Assembly (NCBI RefSeq): GCF_018977255.1
Contig: NW_024704743.1
Span: 12,526,001-12,590,000 of the forward strand
Direction: 5' to 3'
DNA length: 64,000 bases
Source of the DNA: Callorhinchus milii
Taxonomy: Eukaryota
This document shows positions 5,408-64,000 of this stretch, in pieces. The stretch's first letter is position 1; every line of letters starts with the position of its first letter. A model generated the notes under the pieces. The model saw nothing but the letters and a program-made list of their open reading frames with translations, was not told the origin of the DNA and searched no databases. The position numbers were made by a program, and so were the translations under genes.

Positions 5408-8237
5408 TAGAGTGTTATCTTTCTTGATCAGTACGTTTCCAGCCCAACGAGGAAGGAAGCAGTGCTGGATCTAGTTCTGGGGAATGAAGTAGGGCAAGTG
5501 GAGCAGGTTTCAGTGGGAGAGCATCTGGGCAATAGTGATCACAACATCATTAGATTCAGAGTGCATATGGAAAGAGACGAGGAACCATCTAAGGTGCAGA
5601 TACTCAACTGGAAGAGGGCTAATTTCAATGAGTTAAAAAGGGACCTAGCCAAGGTGGACTGGAAAGAAAGATTGGCAGGTAAAACAACTAAAGAGAAGTG
5701 GGAAGTCTTAAAGGATGAGATAGCTCAGGGACAGAATAAATGCATTCCCACAAAAGGGAAAAGTAGGGCATCCAAACCTCCCTGGATGATGAAGGTATTT
5801 GTATCTAGAATGAAGCAGAAAAAAAGAGGCATATGACAAATATCAAACCGAAGATACCGAAGACAACCAAATAGAATATAGGAAGTGCAGAAGAGGTTTG
5901 AAAAAGGAAATAAGAGGGGCAAAAAGATTATACGAGAAAAGGTTAGTGGGTAACATTAAAAGGAATTCTAAAATACTTTACAAACATATCAAGAAAAAAA
6001 GGTTAGTCAAAGGTAGTGTGGGGTCAATTAAGGACCAACGCGGAAATCTTACTGTGGAGGCAGAGGGTATGGCTGATGTACTGAATGAGTACTTTGCATC
6101 TGTCTTCACAAAAGAAGTGGATGCACCAAATGCCACAGTATCGGAGGAGAGGGTAGAGGAAATGGATAGGATAAGTATAAACAGAGAGGAAGGACTGAAA
6201 AGGTTGACTGGGCTGAAGGTAGATAAGTCACCCGGTCCGGACGGGATGCAGCCAAGGGTACTATGGGAGGCAAGGGTACAAATAGCGGAGGCTTTGGCTA
6301 CAATTTTTCAATCTTCGTTGGACACAGGGGCGGTGCCAGAGGACTGGAGAGTGGCCAATGTTACTCTCCTGTACAAAAAGGACAGAAGGACAAACCTGGG
6401 CACTACAGACCAGTCAGCCTAACATCAGTAGTGGGGGAACTCCTGGAGACTATAATCCGGGACAGAATAAATCTTCACTTAGAAGAATATGGGCTAATTA
6501 GGGACAGCCAGCAAGGATTTGTTGAAGGTAAACCTTGTCTAACAAATCTAACAGAATTTTTCGATGAGGTAACAGAGGAAGTGGATAAAGGTAGTGCAGT
6601 TGATGTATTTTATATGGACTTTCAAAAGGCATTTGACAAAGTGCCACATTTTCATTTTCTTTCGACTTGGAAGAAAGATAGAAGCCAATGGTATAAAAGG
6701 GACAACAACAACAAGATTCCATTTATAGAGCGCCTTTCACATCGGGAGGACGTCCCAAGGCGCTGTACAGTTGGGTCAGGACCTGAGCAGGGGGGAAGTG
6801 GTCAGGGTGAGGGGAGGGAAGGGAGGGAGCGAGGAGGGGGTAGAGAATCAAGAGGGGAGCTGAAGGCACGGTCAAAGAGAAAGGTCTTGAGACCGGCCTT
6901 GAAGGAGGAAAGGGAGGAGGCGGCGAAGGCACTGGGGGATAGAGTTCCAGAGCCTAGGGGCTGAGAGGCTGAAGGCCCACCATCGATGGTAGGGCGGTTG
7001 GGGCGGGGGATGTGGAGCAGACCGGAGTCAGAGGAACGGAGGGTACGGGCAGGTAGGTAGGGGGATAATAGGTCAGAGAGGTAGGAGGGAGCAAGGCCGT
7101 GAATGGCCTTGTAGGTGAGGATGAGGATCTTGAATTCGACAGTGGCAGCATGGATCCAGAACTGGCTGGGAGACAGATAGCAGAGAGTTGTGGTGACCGG
7201 TTGCTTTTCTGACTGGAGGGAAATGTACAGTGGCATCCCCCAGGGATCGGTATTAGGACCACTGCTCTTCTTAATATACATAAATGATCTGGACTTGGGT
7301 ATAGCAAGTAGCATTTCCAAGTTTGCGGATGACACAAAGTGAGGTAGGGTGGTAAACAGTGAGAAGGATAGCAGCCAACTGCAGGAAAACATAGACAGAA
7401 TGGTCAAATGGGCAGAGATATGGCAGATGAATTTCAATGTGGAGAAATGCGAGGTAATGCATTTTGGAAGAAAGAATGAGGGGAGGCAATATAGACTGGT
7501 AATACAATCTTAAGGGGTGTGAAAGAACAGAGAGACCTGGGGGTTCAGGTAAATGAATCCTTGAAGGTGGCAGGACAGGTAGATAAAGCTGTAAAAAGGG
7601 CATATGGGATACTAGGCTTTATAAATAGGGGCATAGAGTAAAAGAGTCAGGAGGTTATGATTAACCCATGTAAAACACTGGTTAGGCCTCAGTTAGAATA
7701 CTGCGCCCAGTTCTGGGCACCACACTATAGGAAGGATGTTAAGGCATTGTAAAGGGTGCAGAGGAGTTTTACAAGGATGGTACCAGGAATGAGGGACCTT
7801 GATTATGAGGAAAGGCACGAGAGGCTGGGATTATTCTCATTGGAGCAGAGAAGGTTACGAGGAGACCTAATAGAGGTTTTCAAAATCATGAGGGGTTTAG
7901 AAAAGGGAAAAACTGTTCCCACTGGTGGGTGTGTCGGTGACTCGAGGTCACAGATTTAAAATAGTTTCTAAAAGAAACAGAGGAGGTGAGAAGAAATTTC
8001 TTCACACAGCGAGTTGTTCAAATCTGGAACACATTGCCTGAAAGGGTGGTGGAGGCTGATTCGATAACAACTTTTAAAAACACGGTGGATGGGTATTTGA
8101 GGAGGACGGGTTTGCAGGGTTATGGGGAAAGGGCTGGGGAGTGGGATTGACATTACATTGCTCTTTTCAAAGGGCCGGCACAGACTCGATGGGCCGAATG
8201 CCCTCTTTTTGTGCTCTATGATTTTAGACTATGATTT
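5408..8237 (+). mobile_element. 5'-truncated CR1 LINE (endonuclease end, RT, 3' end), interrupted by an L2 fragment
   Basis: LDLVLGNE..HLGNSDH, KSPGPDG, YRPVSLTS, MDFQKAFDKVPH, FADDTK; short 3' tail with ctatgatt repeats; many stops. Confidence 0.95.
6705..7139 (-). mobile_element. Young L2 3' fragment nested in CR1
   Basis: (TTG)n tail, hairpin 3' end, FKILILTYKAIHGLAPSYL; the CR1 frame (GIKG|TVAAWIQNWL) resumes after it. Confidence 0.92.
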
Positions 8238-55040: not shown

Positions 55041-56369
55041 AAATGTTATGTTAAGTGTCCAGCACAAGAAGCGGAATGAGTAACTACAAACAATTTCAAA
55101 ATGGTTCTCCATAAGTTCTTGCCAACTGAAAGATGAAAGGTTATTAGATTGAAATACATTTTGTAGATACATCAAAAGAGTCGTGTAAGAAATTACATGT
55201 TCCTGTCTGAAACTATGAAGCGATATTGGAGCAAGCAACATACAGTTCAAAACTTGGGTGCATTAGATTTCTGAGGCCCAGCATGTCATCTAAATGGTTT
55301 TAGCCAACATGGTTTTAGTCATAAGACCATTTTGTTTCAAAATTTAAGATCTTGAAGTATTTTGGAAAATTCTTAATTTTGGAAGTCAGTTATCCAAAAT
55401 TCTTCGAAAGACTTGTGCAAGAGTAGCTTCCAAATTAAGACTGAATTATGAGTTTCCCTAAAATTCTGCACAGCCTTAAATTTTAAGAAAATGGTCTTAA
55501 GGCAAAGGAGTTTGAACCTCACGCTAAATAATTCATACAAACACTTTGTTTTGGTCAGCTGGGTGTCTGACACATGTGGAAGCCCATTACTATGCTTTCA
55601 CTTTACAGTATATTCTGTGAAGCGCTTTGAGACATCTCAAAGACACGATAAGGCGCTATATCAAATGCAAGGATTATTATTAAGAGAAATCAAACCAAAT
55701 AAGTTTCATGCATCCCACTTACACATGGAAAATACTGTGTATTGGAATGGAATGTGCACTCCTCCATGGAGTGAGTGCACATTCTATTCCAATACACAAA
55801 TCCAGAGAATATTAGGTGCAGGTTGGCAAAAACCAAGCTTGGGAACCCCAGAGTGTGCTGGAGACTAACCAGTTCAAATTTGCCATAGAAAGCACTATCT
55901 GGTAAGCTTTCCTGATGCTTGTTCAGCTAGGACCACCCTACCATAAGGACCTTGCCTTCCAGGGTTTACAAGAGCTGAGTGAGAAGAATGCGTGTCCAGA
56001 GCCACCCGCCCAGAGTAACATCAGATAAACAATGAAAGACCTACGACCTGGAAACTTTCTTTTTTAGTGGGTTTGTAGCAGAGGAGGATGTTTGTGGCAG
56101 ATTCTGTGGAAAAAGTGTAGCCGCATTTTTCTATTGACCCAGCTCATTAGTCACTCTTCCCTCACCCACCTCTGTGGGCCACTCGTAGTTCCAGTACCTG
56201 AGCCATTGCTTCCACTTTGTTTCCTCTAACAGTTCCTCCTCCCGCATCCACACGTCACCTGCAGTGTATCCTCAGCCCTCTGCTTTTCCTCATCTACATG
56301 CTCCGTTTGGCAACATCAACTGTAGACTTGGGGTTAACTTCCACATGTATGCAGATGACACCCAAATCT

Positions 56370-56820
56370 GTGGAGTCCTGTAGCTCAGTGGTTAGAGCAC
56401 TCGCCTCACAAGCGAGAGACCTGAATTCGATTCCTGCCAGGGCGAAACCCTGGGCAAGTTTCCTTATAATAATAATAATAATCCTTGCATTTGATATAGC
56501 GCTTTTCACGTCGGGAGGACGTCCCAAAGCGCTTCACAGAACACACTGTAAAGTGAATTGACTGTATATTTGTGGGCGAACGCGGCAGCCAATTGCGCAC
56601 AGCAATGTCCCACAAACAGTCATGGATTGAAAATGACCAATTTTATTATTGTTTTGGAGGGATTATTATTAGGCGTGTAGAGTAAGGAAACTTGCCCAAG
56701 GTTTCGTCCTCTGCCTGGAATTGAACTCAGGTCTCTCGCTTGCAAAGCGAGTGCTCTAACCACTGAGCTACAGGACTCCTTACTCCACATACCGGATAAT
56801 AATCCCTCAAGAAAAACAAT
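56370..56820. mobile_element. SINE inserted antisense into another SINE of the same family
   Basis: Plus head 56370-56466, full minus copy 56467-56778, plus body resumes; TSD TCCTTA. Confidence 0.88.
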
Positions 56821-56967
56821 TGCTCTACTTTTCCTTCTACTATTGATTCCAGGTCCTCTAATGTTCTGTACTCTTGCCTGTCAGTCATCAAGGCCTGGAG
56901 GAGCCAAAATTTCCTCCAACTGAACATGGATAAGTTAGTGGTTAGTGATTGGTTACACCTTCAGGAT

Positions 56968-57904
56968 TAAATGAACATTAGACTTTAAACTAAATAGATC
57001 ACATACAGTCCCGTAGTTGGTCACATACTAATCCCGAATACAGCTCGATAAATCATAAGTTTGAATCACATAATAGCAAAGGTTTTCAGCGAAAGAGGGC
57101 GCGTTTATGCATGGATGCGTGGAAGTGCAAAACTATACTACCGGTAACTGGCAGTCAATCACCCTGTTCAGGGAGAAGCAGCGTGCTGGCTGGGAAAGGA
57201 GGCTGGGTCAGCGGTCACATCCAACTGGTGTCTGGAGTCTGTGACAAGGCTTTCTTTTCTCTCTCTCTCTCTGCTACCCTGTCTCCCTCTGGAGTGGCTG
57301 TGCTATTCTGCCTCAGTCAATCTTTCCCCTGAAGTCCGCAGTCCAGAGTTCTCCAGTGATCAGCGTGACCGACTGGAAGAGCTGCCAGTTTGCTGGTCTC
57401 TGAGTTTTAACTCGGAGTCCGTGTGGTTCTCCCTCCTTCAGCCCTCCTGCTCGTCCTCTGAGGAGTCGTTCTCAATCTTGAGTTTCTGTGGAGGTCAACC
57501 CTTTGCAAGAGTGACCGGAGTTCCTCCTCTGTTCTCTCTCTGGTCTGAGAAAACTTCACTCAGTTTCTGAAAGTACTAACTCTTACACTCACATCACCTT
57601 TTGACCGTTACCTTCCTTCAGATCTGCTCATCTTAACCTGCTCATGGTGTTCATTGTATCGGTGCCCCTCACGCATTCCTTTGCCCCCCATGATCTTCTC
57701 ATGGCTCCTAATCTCCTCATCCCAGGCTCCCTGTCCTGGCCTTGAAACCGTTTTCTGACATGGTTCTTTGTTCTAGAAAATATAACTTCGTCTAACTTCT
57801 TTGATAGCTCTAAACCAGTTTGTACCAGCCTGCTGACCGCGAGGTTCAATTTACTGCTGACTTCAGGGGTTTCATAGGTCATTCAATTGCCCATTTTCCT
57901 TATT
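56968..57904 (-). mobile_element. Possible 3' LTR and degenerate polypurine tract of the gag element
   Basis: Minus strand reads aataaggaaaatggg-caat-TGAATGACC at 57904-57877; imperfect inverted end gttcattta at 56976-56968; no partner LTR in the window. Confidence 0.3.
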
Positions 57905-58049
57905 AAACAACAGCGAGTACATTACCCATAATGATATGAGTCATGATCATACACAACATAATCATCCATAACTGACCATTATTTACATCTATGTGTGAAT
58001 AGGGCAGCGGAGGAGGAGAAGAGGACCGGGCTTGGGAAAGATCAGATTA

Positions 58050-59760
58050 GATCAGATCGCGGTTTGGTTGGCTGGGTGAAGGGCTTGGTGGCAATCCATT
58101 TCCCCTGGGGGCAGCCTCGAGCCTAGTGACCGTCCTGGCCACATACAGAGCAGAACCAGCGTATCCCCGGGGGACTGCTTGTCGCTGGCCCTGGTCCCTG
58201 CATAGCTGAACCGGCGGTTGCTCGCGACAAGGTGTGGAGACCTCAAGAGTTTAGTCTGGGGCACGCTCCCTCTACGAAGCACATCTCCTTCCCAGCCTCT
58301 GTGTTTGTATGCCCCATCCGACACATATCTCACTCCTGGGTCATTTTTGAGATGATCTCTCTCCACTCCACTCAGAGTGGCCTGATTGGACCTTAGGGTG
58401 CAGTTTAGCCAGATACTTCTAGTTATATTTTGGAAGGGAATGTGGGTCTGTCTCATCATCGTCTGGGGTGTAAGCTTGTGACAGATCAAATAGCTCGACA
58501 AGTCTTTTATCGAATACCAAGGGGTGTTCTCTAAGATCCTGGTTTGCCTTGTTCTCGCTCTACATCCACTGAGTTGATACCCAGCGCCACCTCGACTGCT
58601 TCCCTCAATGTTAAAAATGAAACTCCGGATAGAAACATTTCCTCGGGAAGTTGTCTGTGCAGCCCTGGCTCTATTGCTCCTAGTAAAATGCGCTTCAAAT
58701 CCTTGTTTTCTAATTCAGGATGGTGCTGCACAAAGGAATCCATGTCCTGGTGAAAGGCTAATGGGTGCTTCCCTGCGGGAATCTGGTCTAACAACGTTAT
58801 TACGGTAATTACTTCTACTTGCGGACACTCAATTTTATGGGTTTCTTTAACTGCCGCGTGCAGTACTACTGGTTCAGGCTTTTTGGTTATTACCGAGGTG
58901 GCGGCCCCCGTTGCCAGTATCTCTTCTATAGCCTCTACAAACGTGTGCTGGTGACCCAGTGCGGTTTGCAGCTCTGCTGTCTGTCTGTCTGAGGCATTCG
59001 CTGTGGTCATCCCCCCCATGTTTTGCTTATTTCTCTGTACCTCGTCCCGCAGAGCGCATCTCGCATCACTTACATTTAATAATAATAATAATCCTTGCAT
59101 TTGATATAGCGCTTTTCACGTCGGGAGGACGTCCCAAAGCGCTTCACTGTAAAGTGAATTGACTGTATATTTGTGGGCAAACGCGGCAGCCAATTGCGCA
59201 CAGCAATGTCCCACAAACAGTCGTAGATTGAAAATGACCAATTTATTATTGTTTTTGTTTTGGAGCGATTATTATTAGGCTCTGTGTGGAGTAAGGAAAC
59301 TTGCCCAAGGTTTCGCCCTCTGCCTGGAATTGGACTCAGGTCTCTCACTTGCAAACCGAGTGCTGTAACCACTGAGCTACAGGACTCCACATTCCAGCTT
59401 TACACAGGTCGTCACATTTTTGCCCTTTGCCGGCGGTCTCCTGTCTCTGTTGAGTGGCCCTCTGCACTGAGCGCTGTTGAGTGCCCATCATCCATCAATT
59501 TGTGTACTTGGAGGCGCAGCTGAACGACCTTCTCTTTCCCCTCCGCCGGACATGTCTCGGGATCAGCTGTTTAACGTGGAACTCACACACGGTACCATCT
59601 CCCGGTATCTCTTCTCTGCCTCGTCTCGCACTGACTGACACCTTTGCTCAGCTGTTTCCTGCCGGGACTGGCACTTGGCCCTCAGACTCTCCTGGTCTGC
59701 TTCTGGATGAGCTGTAGCTGCTCTTTATTTTTCTGTACGTTTGCGTCATTTGTTTTCATG
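58050..59760 (-). mobile_element. Decayed gag-like gene of an LTR retroelement/ERV (coiled coil, capsid-like region, CCHC zinc knuckle), interrupted by a SINE
   Basis: Minus-strand frames give QDLREHPLVFDKRL (MHR-like), YLAKLHPKVQ, and C-SV-C-GQDG-H-*ARG-C at 58111-58152; several stops and frameshifts. Confidence 0.7.
59077..59390 (-). mobile_element. Full-length young SINE inserted into the gag-like element
   Basis: Flanking direct repeat ACATT at 59072-59076 and 59389-59393. Confidence 0.9.
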
Positions 59761-59916
59761 GTGAACTATATATAGCGTATCGCAGGACCGTCCATTGCTA
59801 ATCACTCGGTAATGCTGCATCAAAGGGTACGGATGGGCTTTATTTTCACAGCAATTTCACACGTTTTAATAACTGAAACTGCCCGTCCGTTCGGATACTT
59901 CACTTTAAACACGTGA

Positions 59917-61066
59917 ACGGGGGGGTCCCGGAGAGAGGCCCGGGGGGGGTCCCGGAGAGAGGCCCCGGGGGGGGGGGTCCCGGAGAGAGGCCCCGGGGGG
60001 GGGGTCCCGGAGAGAGGCCCGGGGGGGGGGGTCCCGGAGAGAGGCCCCGGGGGGGGGGTCCCGGAGAGAGGCCCCGGGGGGGGGGGTCCCGGAGAGAGGC
60101 CCCGGGGGGGGGTCCCGGAGAGAGGCCCGGGGGGGGGTCCCGGAGAGAGGCCCCGGGGGGGGTCCCGGAGAGAGGCCCCGGGGGGGGGGTCCCGGAGAGA
60201 GGCCCCGGGGGGGGGTCCCGGAGAGAGGCCCCGGGGGGGGTCCCGGAGAGAGGCCCCGGGGGGGGGGGTCCCGGAGAGAGGCCCGGGGGGAGGGGGGTCC
60301 CGGAGAGAGGCCCCGGGGGGGGGGTCCCGGAGAGAGGCCCCGGGGGGGGGGGGTCCCGGAGAGAGGCCCCGGGGGGGGGGGTCCCGGAGAGAGGCCCCGG
60401 GGGGGGGTCCCGGAGAGAGGCCCGGGGGGGGGTCCCGGAGAGAGGCCCGGGGGGGGGGGTCCGGAGAGAGGCCCGGGGGGGGGGGCCCCGGAGAGAGGCC
60501 CGGGGGGGGGGGTCCCGGAGAGAGGCCCCGGGGGGGGGTCCCGGAGAGAGGCCCCGGGGGGGGGGGTCCCGGAGAGAGGCCCCGGGGGGGTCCCGGAGAG
60601 AGGCCCCAGGGGGGGGGGGTCCCGGAGAGAGGCCCCGGGGGGTCCCGGAGAGAGGCCCCGGGGGGGGTCCCGGAGAGAGGCCCCGGGGGGAGGGGTCCCG
60701 GAGAGAGGCCCCGGGGGGGGGGGGGGGGGTCCCGGAGAGAGGCCCCGGGGGGGGGTCCCGGAGAGAGGCCCCGGGGGGGGGGGGGGGTCCCGGAGAGAGG
60801 CCACGGGGGGGGGTCCCGGAGAGAGGCCCCGGGGGGGGGTCCCGGAGAGAGGCCCCGGGGGGGGGGTCCCGGAGAGAGGCCCCGGGGGGGGGTCCCGGAC
60901 AGAGGCCCGGGGGGGGGTCCCGGAGAGAGGCCACGGGGGGGGGTCCGGACAGAGAGGCCCCGGGGGGGGGTCCCGGAGAGAGGCCCCGGGGGGGGGGTCC
61001 GGAGAGAGAGGCCCCGGGGGGGGTCCCGGAGAGAGGCCCCGGGGGGTCCCGGAGAGAGAGGCCCGG
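59917..61066. repeat. G-rich minisatellite, unit G(n)TCCCGGAGAGAGGCCC(C), about 43 copies, followed by a degenerate GA-rich tract to about 61340
   Basis: Direct reading; constant core with variable G-run length. Confidence 0.97.
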
Positions 61067-61319
61067 GGGGCCCGGGGAGGAGGAGGAGGGAGGGCCCGGG
61101 GGGGGGGGAGGTACGGAGGGGAGAGAGAGAGGAGGGCCCGGGGAGGAGGGAGGGAGAGGGAGGAGGGAGGGGGCCCGGGGAGGGAGGGGGAGGGCCCGGG
61201 GAGCGGGAGGGGGGGAGGGGGAGGGCCCGGGGAGGGAGGGAGGCAGGGAGGGCCCGGGGAGGAGGAAGGGGGGCGGGGAGGGCCCGGGGAGCGGGAGGGG
61301 GAGCGGGAGGGGGAGGGCC

Positions 61320-61540
61320 CGGGGAGGGAGGGCCCGGGCTGCCCTGCAGACGCGGCGCGGGCACTGGCTTTGTTAGAGGAGGGGCGGACGGCAGTGACTG
61401 ACTGACTGACCGTGAACCTGGGCCCTGGTGAGCGCCGCTCGGGTTATTATTATTTAAGGTGATCATTGGGGCCTGAAATGTTGGTGAAGACAATTCCCTC
61501 CTGAAAGCCCCCCCGCAGCCCCGAGCTGTGAGTCCGGGGC
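61320..61540 (+). promoter_or_regulatory. GC/CpG-rich putative TBC1D7 promoter and non-coding first exon
   Basis: CpG cluster (gacgcggcgcggg), GC box GGGGCGG at 61381, candidate donor ctg|gtgagc after 61427; 2.3 kb upstream of the ATG exon. Confidence 0.5.
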
Positions 61541-63714: not shown

Positions 63715-63826
63715 ATGGCAGAAGACCCACAGAGAAACTTCCGTTCCCACTATTATGAAAAGGTTGGGTTTCGTGGCGTTGAAGAGAAGAAATCCCTGGA
63801 GATTCTGCTGAAGGACGATCCATTGG
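63715..63826 (+). CDS. TBC1D7: TBC1D7 first coding exon ([37 protein letters not shown]); gene continues beyond the window
   Basis: aaaATGG Kozak context; N-terminus matches TBC1D7 ([27 protein letters not shown]); 112 nt then |gtaaat donor; likely acceptor ttctgcag| at 63605. Confidence 0.93.
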
Positions 63827-64000
63827 GTAAATCAATGTTACATGTTTCAGTGTATCTGAGATAAATTGGTGTTAAAGTAGAAGTTTATATGATACAGTAA
63901 GTGAAATCCTCTGCTGTGCAATTTAGTATTGTGGATGAGTTGGAATGAGATATGGTATTTTGTATGAAATTTGGACATGGGAAATTTGTAATCTTTTTTA

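What the first reader, a model, noticed from the sequence alone, without database searches (positions are those of the whole stretch)
56968..59760. Hidden gag-only retroelement (coiled coil, capsid MHR-like motif, CCHC knuckle, no pol) head-to-head with TBC1D7
Seen in sequence: joining the minus-strand frames across a SINE insertion (TSD ACATT) gives an N-terminal coiled-coil-like region (MKTNDANVQKNKEQLQL / EKVVQLRLQVHKL), a long open helical segment (58531-59076), QDLREHPLVFDKRL, YLAKLHPKVQ, and an exact Cx2Cx4Hx4C knuckle (CSVCGQDGH*ARGC, 58111-58152) containing a TAG that could derive from TGG. Established: QxxxExxxxFxxRL-type motifs plus a CCHC knuckle are Gag hallmarks. After the knuckle I see no protease, RT or integrase; about 200 nt later come a purine tract and a TG-starting unique segment that may be an LTR. 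No 5' LTR is visible; the minisatellite occupies that position. Inference: a non-autonomous gag-only LTR/ERV family, or a decayed domesticated gag (ARC/PNMA-like) sharing a bidirectional promoter with TBC1D7.
Basis: partly seen in the sequence, partly recalled or inferred. Interest (0 to 1): 0.72.

Follow-up and report, generated by a model that had tools for sequence, protein, structure and literature searches.

The report
Dead retroviral gag fossil beside TBC1D7
This is a broken, long-dead capsid (gag) gene left by a retrovirus-like jumping element next to the TBC1D7 gene; it has no close known relative, but nothing shows it is a working gag-only element or a gene the host uses.

Summary
The gag remnant is real. 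The window's only Cx2Cx4Hx4C knuckle and only QX3EX4FX2RL capsid motif lie 389 bases apart on the minus strand in gag order (jointly 0 of 5000 shuffles). A language-model search points to retrotransposon Gag (0.92, a lead). No profile, homologue or fold confirmed it.

The frame is dead: at least eight breaks, including a SINE with an ACATT duplication. A contig from another sample repeats the core without gaps.

The proposed LTR at 56968-57885 is not supported as drawn. The segment is multi-copy (87-92% identical relatives), but homology runs about 56940-57990. There is no target-site duplication, no matching 5' LTR, and no minus-strand poly(A) signal. Relatives leave the window sequence at 57987-57997 instead of continuing into this gag. 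The gag core has only two or three patchy relatives.

Best reading: a decayed, truncated copy of a low-copy ERV/LTR family. Whether the family itself lacks pol is untested, because no genome was held. Gag-only ERV families are already described (zebrafish Bik-1/Bik-2, chicken ENS-1). Head-to-head orientation with TBC1D7 holds; a shared promoter is unproven. The scan had not noted this sequence elsewhere.

The parts
59685..59759 (-). First gag-like piece from the Met at 59759 (25 codons, E/K/Q/R 48%), ends at a stop
   Evidence: no Pfam hit; belonging to gag is inferred from position
59566..59724 (-). Second piece, other frame (53 codons), ends at stop 59565
   Evidence: no Pfam or NCBIfam hit
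59415..59570 (-). Third piece (52 codons, includes EKVVQLRLQVHKL), followed by stops at 59414 and 59402
59077..59388 (-). tRNA-derived SINE inserted into gag; ACATT duplicated at 59072-59076 and 59389-59393
   Evidence: 293 of 304 aligned bases identical to the SINE at 56466-56790; single-locus contigs of X1, X2 and X7 run into its edge
58534..59073 (-). 180 open codons: helical stretch, linker, probable capsid N-terminal domain
   Evidence: ESM Atlas features nearest to Retrotrans_gag clusters, 0.92/0.91, 118-122 of 256 shared; no sequence homologue; AF2 models pLDDT 36 and 49
58422..58559 (-). Frame with the major homology region QDLREHPLVFDKRL (58541-58500); stop at 58421
   Evidence: fits QX3EX4PhiX2R of PMC8278194 Table 2; no Pfam or PDB hit
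58344..58418 (-). Rest of probable capsid C-terminal domain (YLAKLHPKVQ), stop at 58343
   Evidence: domain identity inferred
58111..58152 (-). Single Cys-His zinc knuckle with an in-frame stop at 58125; this frame ends at stop 58044
   Evidence: Pfam zf-CCHC E 0.013, 16.1 bits, below the 20.8 cut-off; PDB knuckles of TUT4/7 and nucleocapsids
56940..57990 (.). Multi-copy unit of about 1.05 kb (LTR, or 3' end of the element); strand and inner boundaries unresolved
   Evidence: many contigs 87-92% identical; ends at 56940 (X9 records 27, 28) and 57987/57997 (X1 record 5, X9 record 31); no TSD
57631..57882 (-). 84 open codons inside the repeat unit; possible decayed second ORF (lead only)
   Evidence: Atlas recognition 2365 but only phage/hypothetical hits; no Pfam, viral or metagenome relative
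57250..57272 (-). 23-base pure purine run followed after three bases by TGTCAC (57246): alternative polypurine tract / LTR start; overlaps a (TC)n microsatellite
   Evidence: untested
59760..59918 (.). CpG-rich leader between gag start and minisatellite; no similarity to the 3' unit
   Evidence: CpG o/e 1.34, reached by 2 of 344 background windows; best match to the 3' unit E 0.83
59919..61070 (.). GC-rich minisatellite, 26-27-base unit, 43 copies
63715..63864 (+). First coding exon of TBC1D7

Best explanation
A dead, truncated copy of a low-copy endogenous-retrovirus-like LTR element. The ancestor made a Gag with a helical N-terminal part, a capsid with a major homology region and one Cys-His knuckle for RNA packaging, and it integrated upstream of TBC1D7 in the opposite orientation. 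This copy lacks pol and a 5' LTR, most simply through internal deletion or recombination joining the end of gag to the 3' unit. It then decayed neutrally (stops, frameshifts, a SINE). It makes no Gag. Its 5' end may be passively transcribed from the neighbouring CpG-rich region. Shown: motifs, breaks, multi-copy relatives. Inferred: capsid fold, common origin of gag and 3' unit, deletion as the cause of missing pol, any transcription. That it is a dead gag of a repeated element is about 0.9 likely; the confidence given is for the whole account.
For: Motif pair in gag order, 0 of 5000 shuffles, matching the published consensus of both motifs. Atlas nearest clusters are Retrotrans_gag, and 10 of the 10 best family hits share a family or clan. 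At least eight breaks. X1 record 6 covers 57903-58839 with 6 substitutions and 0 gaps, so the frameshifts there are not assembly errors. Relatives of the gag core (X1 record 7: 40 differences and 38 gaps over 391 letters; X2 records 14, 15: 19 of 178 and 24 of 183) and of the 3' unit (e.g. 26 of 271, 38 of 295, 20 of 257) are about equally diverged, as one family of one age would be. Other copies of the 3' unit leave the window sequence at 57987-57997; one has 842 other letters there. Internally deleted ERV copies are usual: 19 deleted copies in X. tropicalis (PMC8278194 section 10); coelacanth CoeERV1-1 mostly internally deleted or solo LTRs (PMC4977317 passage).
Against: No HMMER profile for any capsid or gag family, and no sequence homologue. 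The Atlas shared-feature count (118-122) is below the 170 typical of true family members, and 4-10 in 100 shuffled proteins score 0.9. No pol-bearing relative was seen, and no pol or env remnant lies at the junction. No TSD ties gag and 3' unit into one insertion. The 842 unlike letters could be mere flank of a solo LTR. Only 32 of some 284,000 laid pieces were shown, and summed depth is not a copy number.
Confidence: 0.5

Rival explanations
1. Decayed member of a true non-autonomous family carrying gag (perhaps plus one small second ORF) and no pol, mobilised in trans like zebrafish Bik-1/Bik-2 or chicken ENS-1.
For: The knuckle frame ends in a stop only 57 bases before the multi-copy unit, with no pol remnant. 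An 84-codon frame and further protein-like pieces follow on the same strand. Such families exist (bioRxiv 2024.03.25.586437). An unchecked note reports a young pol-bearing ERV in this genome, a conceivable helper.
Against: 58097-58378 is covered as one locus (summed depth 9-14, against 93-345 over 56969-57955), and contigs of other copies diverge at 57987-57997, so the gag-to-repeat junction is not seen in other copies. No paired LTR and no TSD. Purine bias of the putative second ORF (0.63) is reached by 15 of 92 background windows.
Confidence: 0.2
2. Two unrelated fossils side by side: an orphan gag fragment, and an independent solo LTR or other repeat (56940-57990), possibly on the plus strand.
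For: On the plus strand the unit has TATAA at 57781, ATTAAA at 57902 and ends in TACA at 57987, an LTR-like order. The minus strand has no AATAAA/ATTAAA. The unit has many more relatives than the gag.
Against: No exact 5-6-base TSD for any TG..CA pair tried; only one exact 4-mer and three one-mismatch pairs came up. Divergence of unit and gag relatives is similar. The longest protein-like frame of the unit is on the gag strand.
Confidence: 0.2
3. A formerly domesticated gag gene (ARC/PNMA-like) driven by a bidirectional TBC1D7 promoter, now a pseudogene.
For: Head-to-head layout, ATGs 3956 bases apart. CpG-rich leader. A 567-letter contig of depth 63 over 59366-59915 in run X7, where single-locus DNA contigs have depth 6-15. 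A PNMA cluster is among the Atlas leads at 0.87.
Against: Partial relatives at 87-90% identity, a repeat joined to its 3' end, and at least eight breaks. X7's RNA status is a guess, contigs give no strand, and that contig is bounded by repeats at both ends.
Confidence: 0.05
4. Not a gag at all: chance motifs, or ORF1 of another retroelement.
For: All profile, homologue and fold searches for the capsid were blank.
Against: Joint motif occurrence 0 of 5000; independent language-model signal for Gag; motif order and spacing fit gag.
Confidence: 0.05

Closest known systems
Zebrafish BHIKHARI Bik-1 / Bik-2 (crestin), gag-only endogenous lokiretroviruses (bioRxiv 10.1101/2024.03.25.586437; read parts 1-2 of 6 and passages)
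   Same: Gag without pol or env; helical or coiled-coil N-terminal part before a capsid domain.
   Different: Bik-1 has paired LTRs, TSDs, one intact 617-aa ORF, near-identical young copies and a glycine-rich patch. Here there is one possible LTR, no TSD, a shattered frame, about 10% divergence and a Cys-His knuckle. No sequence link was tested.
Chicken ENS-1/ERNI, non-autonomous variant of ENS-3 (same paper)
   Same: Capsid preceded by an extended coiled coil; non-autonomous ERV family.
   Different: ERV-L-related, young and intact. The capsid motif here looks unlike the class III rows of PMC8278194 Fig. S6 (4 or fewer of 14 identities by eye).
Class I (gamma/epsilon-like) ERV Gag
   Same: QX3EX4PhiX2R motif and a Cys-His box. 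By eye against the 23 rows of Fig. S6, positions 7-20 match the 5 gammaretrovirus rows at 6-8 of 14 and the other orthoretrovirus rows at 2-6. The proline at position 9 occurs only in those 5 rows.
   Different: No Gag_p30-type Pfam hit, no N-terminal myristoylation glycine at the first Met, and no pol to place it. Ty3/gypsy and fish ERV rows are not in that figure.
Ty3/gypsy (Metaviridae) Retrotrans_gag PF03732
   Same: Nearest Atlas clusters, 0.91-0.92; a single knuckle and helical N-terminus are usual there (recalled).
   Different: No HMMER hit to PF03732 at E up to 10; low shared-feature count.
CmiERVs of the elephant shark (PMC4422223; read part 1 of 2, searched supplement 1)
   Same: ERVs of a cartilaginous fish, mostly fragments.
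   Different: 0 hits for 4 twelve-base probes (2 sites, both strands) in the three sequences, a weak test. The LTR ends shown in the passages do not resemble the unit's ends by eye.

Membership tests
Orthoretrovirus-type / class I ERV Gag | Major homology region QX3EX4PhiX2R | tested here: met
   exact match from 58541; consensus from PMC8278194 Table 2
Orthoretrovirus-type / class I ERV Gag | Cys-His box CX2CX4HX4C downstream of capsid | tested here: met
   58152-58111, one copy, interrupted by a stop
Orthoretrovirus-type / class I ERV Gag | Capsid fold or profile match | tested here: inconclusive
   single-sequence models pLDDT 36 and 49; no capsid among matches; no Pfam hit
Orthoretrovirus-type / class I ERV Gag | N-terminal myristoylation signal GX2-3[S/T] | tested here: inconclusive
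   absent at Met 59759, but the true start is uncertain
Orthoretrovirus-type / class I ERV Gag | RT phylogeny places the element in the class | not testable with these tools
   no pol in this copy; no genome held
LTR element (provirus structure) | Two related LTRs flanking the internal region | tested here: not met
   no match of 56935-58000 elsewhere in the window beyond one 36-base hit at E 0.057; leader versus 3' unit best E 0.83
LTR element (provirus structure) | TG..CA termini with 4-6-base target-site duplication | tested here: not met
   no exact 5-6-base duplication for 5 left and up to 19 right ends of the unit; single exact 4-mers only
LTR element (provirus structure) | Polypurine tract directly before the 3' LTR | tested here: inconclusive
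   no run of 10 before 57885; pyrimidine-rich before 57987; a 23-base run before TGTCAC at 57246 overlaps a microsatellite
LTR element (provirus structure) | Primer-binding site behind the 5' LTR | not tested
   none recognised by eye in 59760-59918; host tRNA ends were not compared
LTR element (provirus structure) | Dispersed related copies | tested here: met
   2-15 contigs per listed variant site over 57023-57954 in X1 and X2, 1-3 over the gag core
Gag-only non-autonomous ERV (Bik/ENS-1 kind) | No copy of the family carries pol; copies share the gag-to-LTR junction | tested here: inconclusive
   genome not held; contigs of other copies diverge at 57987-57997
Gag-only non-autonomous ERV (Bik/ENS-1 kind) | Single long intact gag ORF between paired LTRs | tested here: not met
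   at least eight breaks, no 5' LTR in this copy
Domesticated gag gene (ARC/PNMA kind) | Intact, single-copy ORF free of element context | tested here: not met
Domesticated gag gene (ARC/PNMA kind) | Conserved orthologue under purifying selection | not testable with these tools
   no animal genomes held; no homologue among 1.84 billion representatives for the 180-aa piece
Ty3/gypsy Retrotrans_gag | PF03732 match | tested here: inconclusive
   no HMMER hit; Atlas 0.92 with 118 of 256 shared features

The most novel reading that the evidence does not exclude
The locus is a fossil of an undescribed pol-less ERV family of cartilaginous fish. Its Gag, with no detectable sequence relative, joins a Bik/ERNI-like helical N-terminus to a gamma-like capsid motif and one knuckle, and is followed by a small second ORF inside or before a long LTR. 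Other copies may still be intact and expressed, extending the gag-only strategy seen in zebrafish and chicken to a third vertebrate lineage.
Probability: 0.12. Interest if true: 0.6.

Novelty: new member of a known kind. Interest (0 to 1): 0.27.

Why it matters
As it stands it is one more ERV/LTR fossil. Its modest value is that pol-based screens (the method of PMC4422223) miss such pieces, and that its Gag has no detectable relative in very large protein collections, so it marks an unsampled gag lineage. If the family proved pol-less with intact expressed copies, it would offer a test of whether developmentally used gag-only ERVs (Bik-1, Bik-2, ERNI) recur across jawed vertebrates.

Tried and rejected
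No genome was held, so copy number, paired-LTR copies and pol linkage could not be counted.

Homologue searches were blank: the 180-aa piece among 316-2000-aa proteins (1420 candidates, 0 at E 0.01) and against 1.84 billion representatives (0). The 243-residue read-through was blank among 133-426-aa proteins (563 candidates, 0 at E 1), Pfam, PDB sequences and viral contigs. The 84-aa frame was blank in viral (21 pattern hits, 0 confirmed) and metagenome contigs (249, 0).

A frame slip: the reference 58424-58558 used (protein 2), (protein 2) is not the capsid-motif frame. Those results say nothing about the motif, and the last protein-database search was lost. The right frame was rerun against Pfam and PDB: 0 families and one irrelevant hit at E 1.2. 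It was too short for the locus search.

Folds: both single-sequence models were poor, and four fold searches listed no retroviral capsid; best Z 5.7 (rmsd 3.3, 78 aligned) to RecC. This is no evidence either way. Atlas hits of the 84-aa frame to phage HK97-gp10-like clusters (0.94, 127 shared) were rejected as implausible. Heptad test not significant. Rfam found only SINE tRNA heads above cut-off.

No holder on record as RNA was listed. The missing cover of 58379-58942 in the guessed-RNA run X7, and near-missing cover in X9, is not used as evidence. The composition argument for a second ORF was weakened by its control.

Troyka-type elements were rejected on termini (abstract only). DIRS-type and LINE ORF1 readings were set aside from recalled knowledge, because they lack this capsid motif.

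Literature searches showed no paper describing this element or a TBC1D7-linked gag. The library omits most subscription papers and Repbase, so this does not show it is unpublished. Supplements of the bioRxiv preprints were not seen and could bear on Bik relatives.
Full report
1. What is in the sequence. Along the path Met 59759 to stop 58044 there are stops at 59684, 59565, 59414, 59402, 58533, 58421, 58343 and 58125, four of them with a change of frame, plus a 312-base tRNA-derived SINE with a perfect ACATT duplication. That is at least eight breaks in about 1.4 kb. TBC1D7's first coding exon starts at 63715 on the plus strand, 3956 bases from the gag Met. Between them lie a CpG-rich leader, a 1.15-kb minisatellite and a donor-like site near 61428.

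2. Is it gag? The window holds exactly one Cx2Cx4Hx4C and exactly one QxxxExxxx[FY]xxRL in six frames, 389 bases apart, capsid motif first. In 5000 shuffles of the region they occur 42 times (2 with the GH pair) and 12 times, and never together in order (patterns chosen after the fact). Both fit the consensus in Table 2 of PMC8278194 (passages). The ESM Atlas ranks Retrotrans_gag clusters first for the 180-aa piece (0.92, 0.91; recognition 2633), with foamy Gag and PNMA as lower leads at 0.87; shared features are only 118-122 of 256. Against this, HMMER finds only a sub-threshold zf-CCHC, no homologue was found, and the folds were too poor to test. Poor detectability of fish ERV gag by domain search is itself reported (PMC10699275 passage; PMC5512871 passages). 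I put gag origin at about 0.9-0.95. By eye against Fig. S6 of PMC8278194 the motif is closest to the five gammaretrovirus rows (6-8 of 14 identities; proline at position 9 only there). Lokiretrovirus capsid is also reported as MuLV-like (PMC7947760 passage), and gypsy rows are missing, so the class stays open. The 'coiled coil' is compositionally plausible but showed no significant heptad pattern.

3. Copies. With no genome held, contigs of four public runs of the same species label were laid at 80% likeness (4 of 24 listed runs; 32 of about 284,000 pieces shown, most of the rest from the SINEs). Single-locus contigs have depth 6-15. Summed depth is 93-303 (X1) and 128-345 (X2) over 56969-57955, 9-14 over 58097-58378, 17-39 over 58379-58942, and 20-34 over 59507-59788. 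The tool warns that this is no copy number. Listed variant sites are carried by 2-15 contigs in the 3' unit and 1-3 in the gag core. Relatives are 87-92% identical in both parts. So the 3' unit is a dispersed repeat with of the order of ten relatives, and the gag core has two or three patchy ones. X1 record 6 repeats 57903-58839 without a gap, so those frameshifts are real; 4 of its 6 substitutions are listed, none in the stop codons at 58421 or 58125.

4. The supposed LTR. Homology to other copies runs from 56940 (two X9 contigs) to 57987-57997 (X1 record 5; X9 record 31, whose other 842 letters are unlike the window). It does not stop at 57885. No purine run of 10 precedes 57885, and the minus strand has no AATAAA or ATTAAA. 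No boundary pair gives an exact 5-6-base duplication, and the 5' leader has no similarity to the unit. Three readings stay open. (a) A 1.05-kb LTR with a frame inside it. (b) A second ORF (84 open codons at 57882-57631 and further pieces), then a 23-base purine run and a short LTR from TGTCAC at 57246; the even depth across the unit does not favour this. (c) A plus-strand LTR with TATAA 57781, ATTAAA 57902 and end TACA 57987. The purine bias I first took as support for a second ORF is reached by 15 of 92 background windows.

5. The TBC1D7 link. Orientation is head-to-head. The leader has CpG o/e 1.34, reached by 2 of 344 background windows, which suggests it lies in an unmethylated region (inference). 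Run X7 has one 567-letter contig of depth 63 over 59366-59915, nearly identical to this locus and carrying a 10-base length variant also seen in X1. The run's RNA status is a guess, no strand is given, the contig ends at repeats on both sides, and reduced-representation DNA could give the same picture. At most this hints at passive transcription of the 5' end. A search for TBC1D7 with 'bidirectional promoter' listed 1 unrelated paper.

6. How it most likely works. The ancestor was a reverse-transcribing LTR element whose Gag assembled a particle and packaged RNA by its knuckle (established knowledge of these motifs). This copy lost or never had pol and a 5' LTR and has decayed; it does nothing as protein. 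A local deletion is preferred over a pol-less family, because the junction between knuckle and 3' unit is not seen in any other contig shown, and deleted derivatives are common in frog and coelacanth ERVs. The preference is modest (0.5 against 0.2 for a pol-less family and 0.2 for two unrelated fossils), since solo LTRs would give the same divergence point.

7. Comparison and novelty. Gag-only ERV families with a coiled-coil plus capsid Gag are described: Bik-1 and Bik-2 in zebrafish and ENS-1/ERNI in chicken (bioRxiv 10.1101/2024.03.25.586437; parts 1-2 of 6 and passages). This locus resembles them in layout but fails the tests of paired LTRs and an intact ORF. It does not appear to be one of the three CmiERVs (PMC4422223; weak test, and the host species was not determined here). 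Other papers seen: passages of bioRxiv 2024.07.05.601823 on knuckle number by genus, passages of PMC8672886, abstract of PMC12440569. Earlier notes of this scan showed no look-alike sequence and nothing near.

8. Verdict. A real, previously unlabelled gag fossil of a divergent ERV/LTR lineage: a new member of a known kind, interest 0.27. The bolder reading, a pol-less family with intact copies in a cartilaginous fish, has about 0.12 probability and would merit 0.6.

Noticed in passing
window 56369-56790: Two tRNA-derived SINE heads on opposite strands (56374-56445 +, 56711-56773 -) flank one SINE body, giving a 69-base 90% inverted repeat; the minus-strand copy is 96% identical to the SINE inside gag.
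   Followed up: partly
window 59919-61070: 43-copy, 26-27-base, 85% GC minisatellite with G-runs of variable length, directly upstream of the putative TBC1D7 first exon; could form G-quadruplexes or vary in length (untested).
   Followed up: no
window 61340-61436: GC-rich stretch with a GC box and a donor-like GGTGAG near 61428: candidate non-coding first exon of TBC1D7 (by eye).
   Followed up: partly
window 59366-59915: A 10-base length variant segregates in this piece (X1 record 8, X7 record 24 against the window and X2 record 16).
   Followed up: no
window 55723-55818: Near-perfect hairpin giving only sub-threshold microRNA-family hits; high summed contig depth next to it suggests a repeat.
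   Followed up: no
window 56828-56968: A separate repeat (63-68 contigs at site 56900; weak matches elsewhere in the window) abuts the left end of the 3' unit and may be the sequence into which it inserted.
   Followed up: partly
window 6227-6961: LINE-type reverse transcriptase fragment (RVT_1, E 9e-09); many other long frames in the window look like LINE debris, and 10 of 11 frames tested had no Pfam hit.
   Followed up: partly
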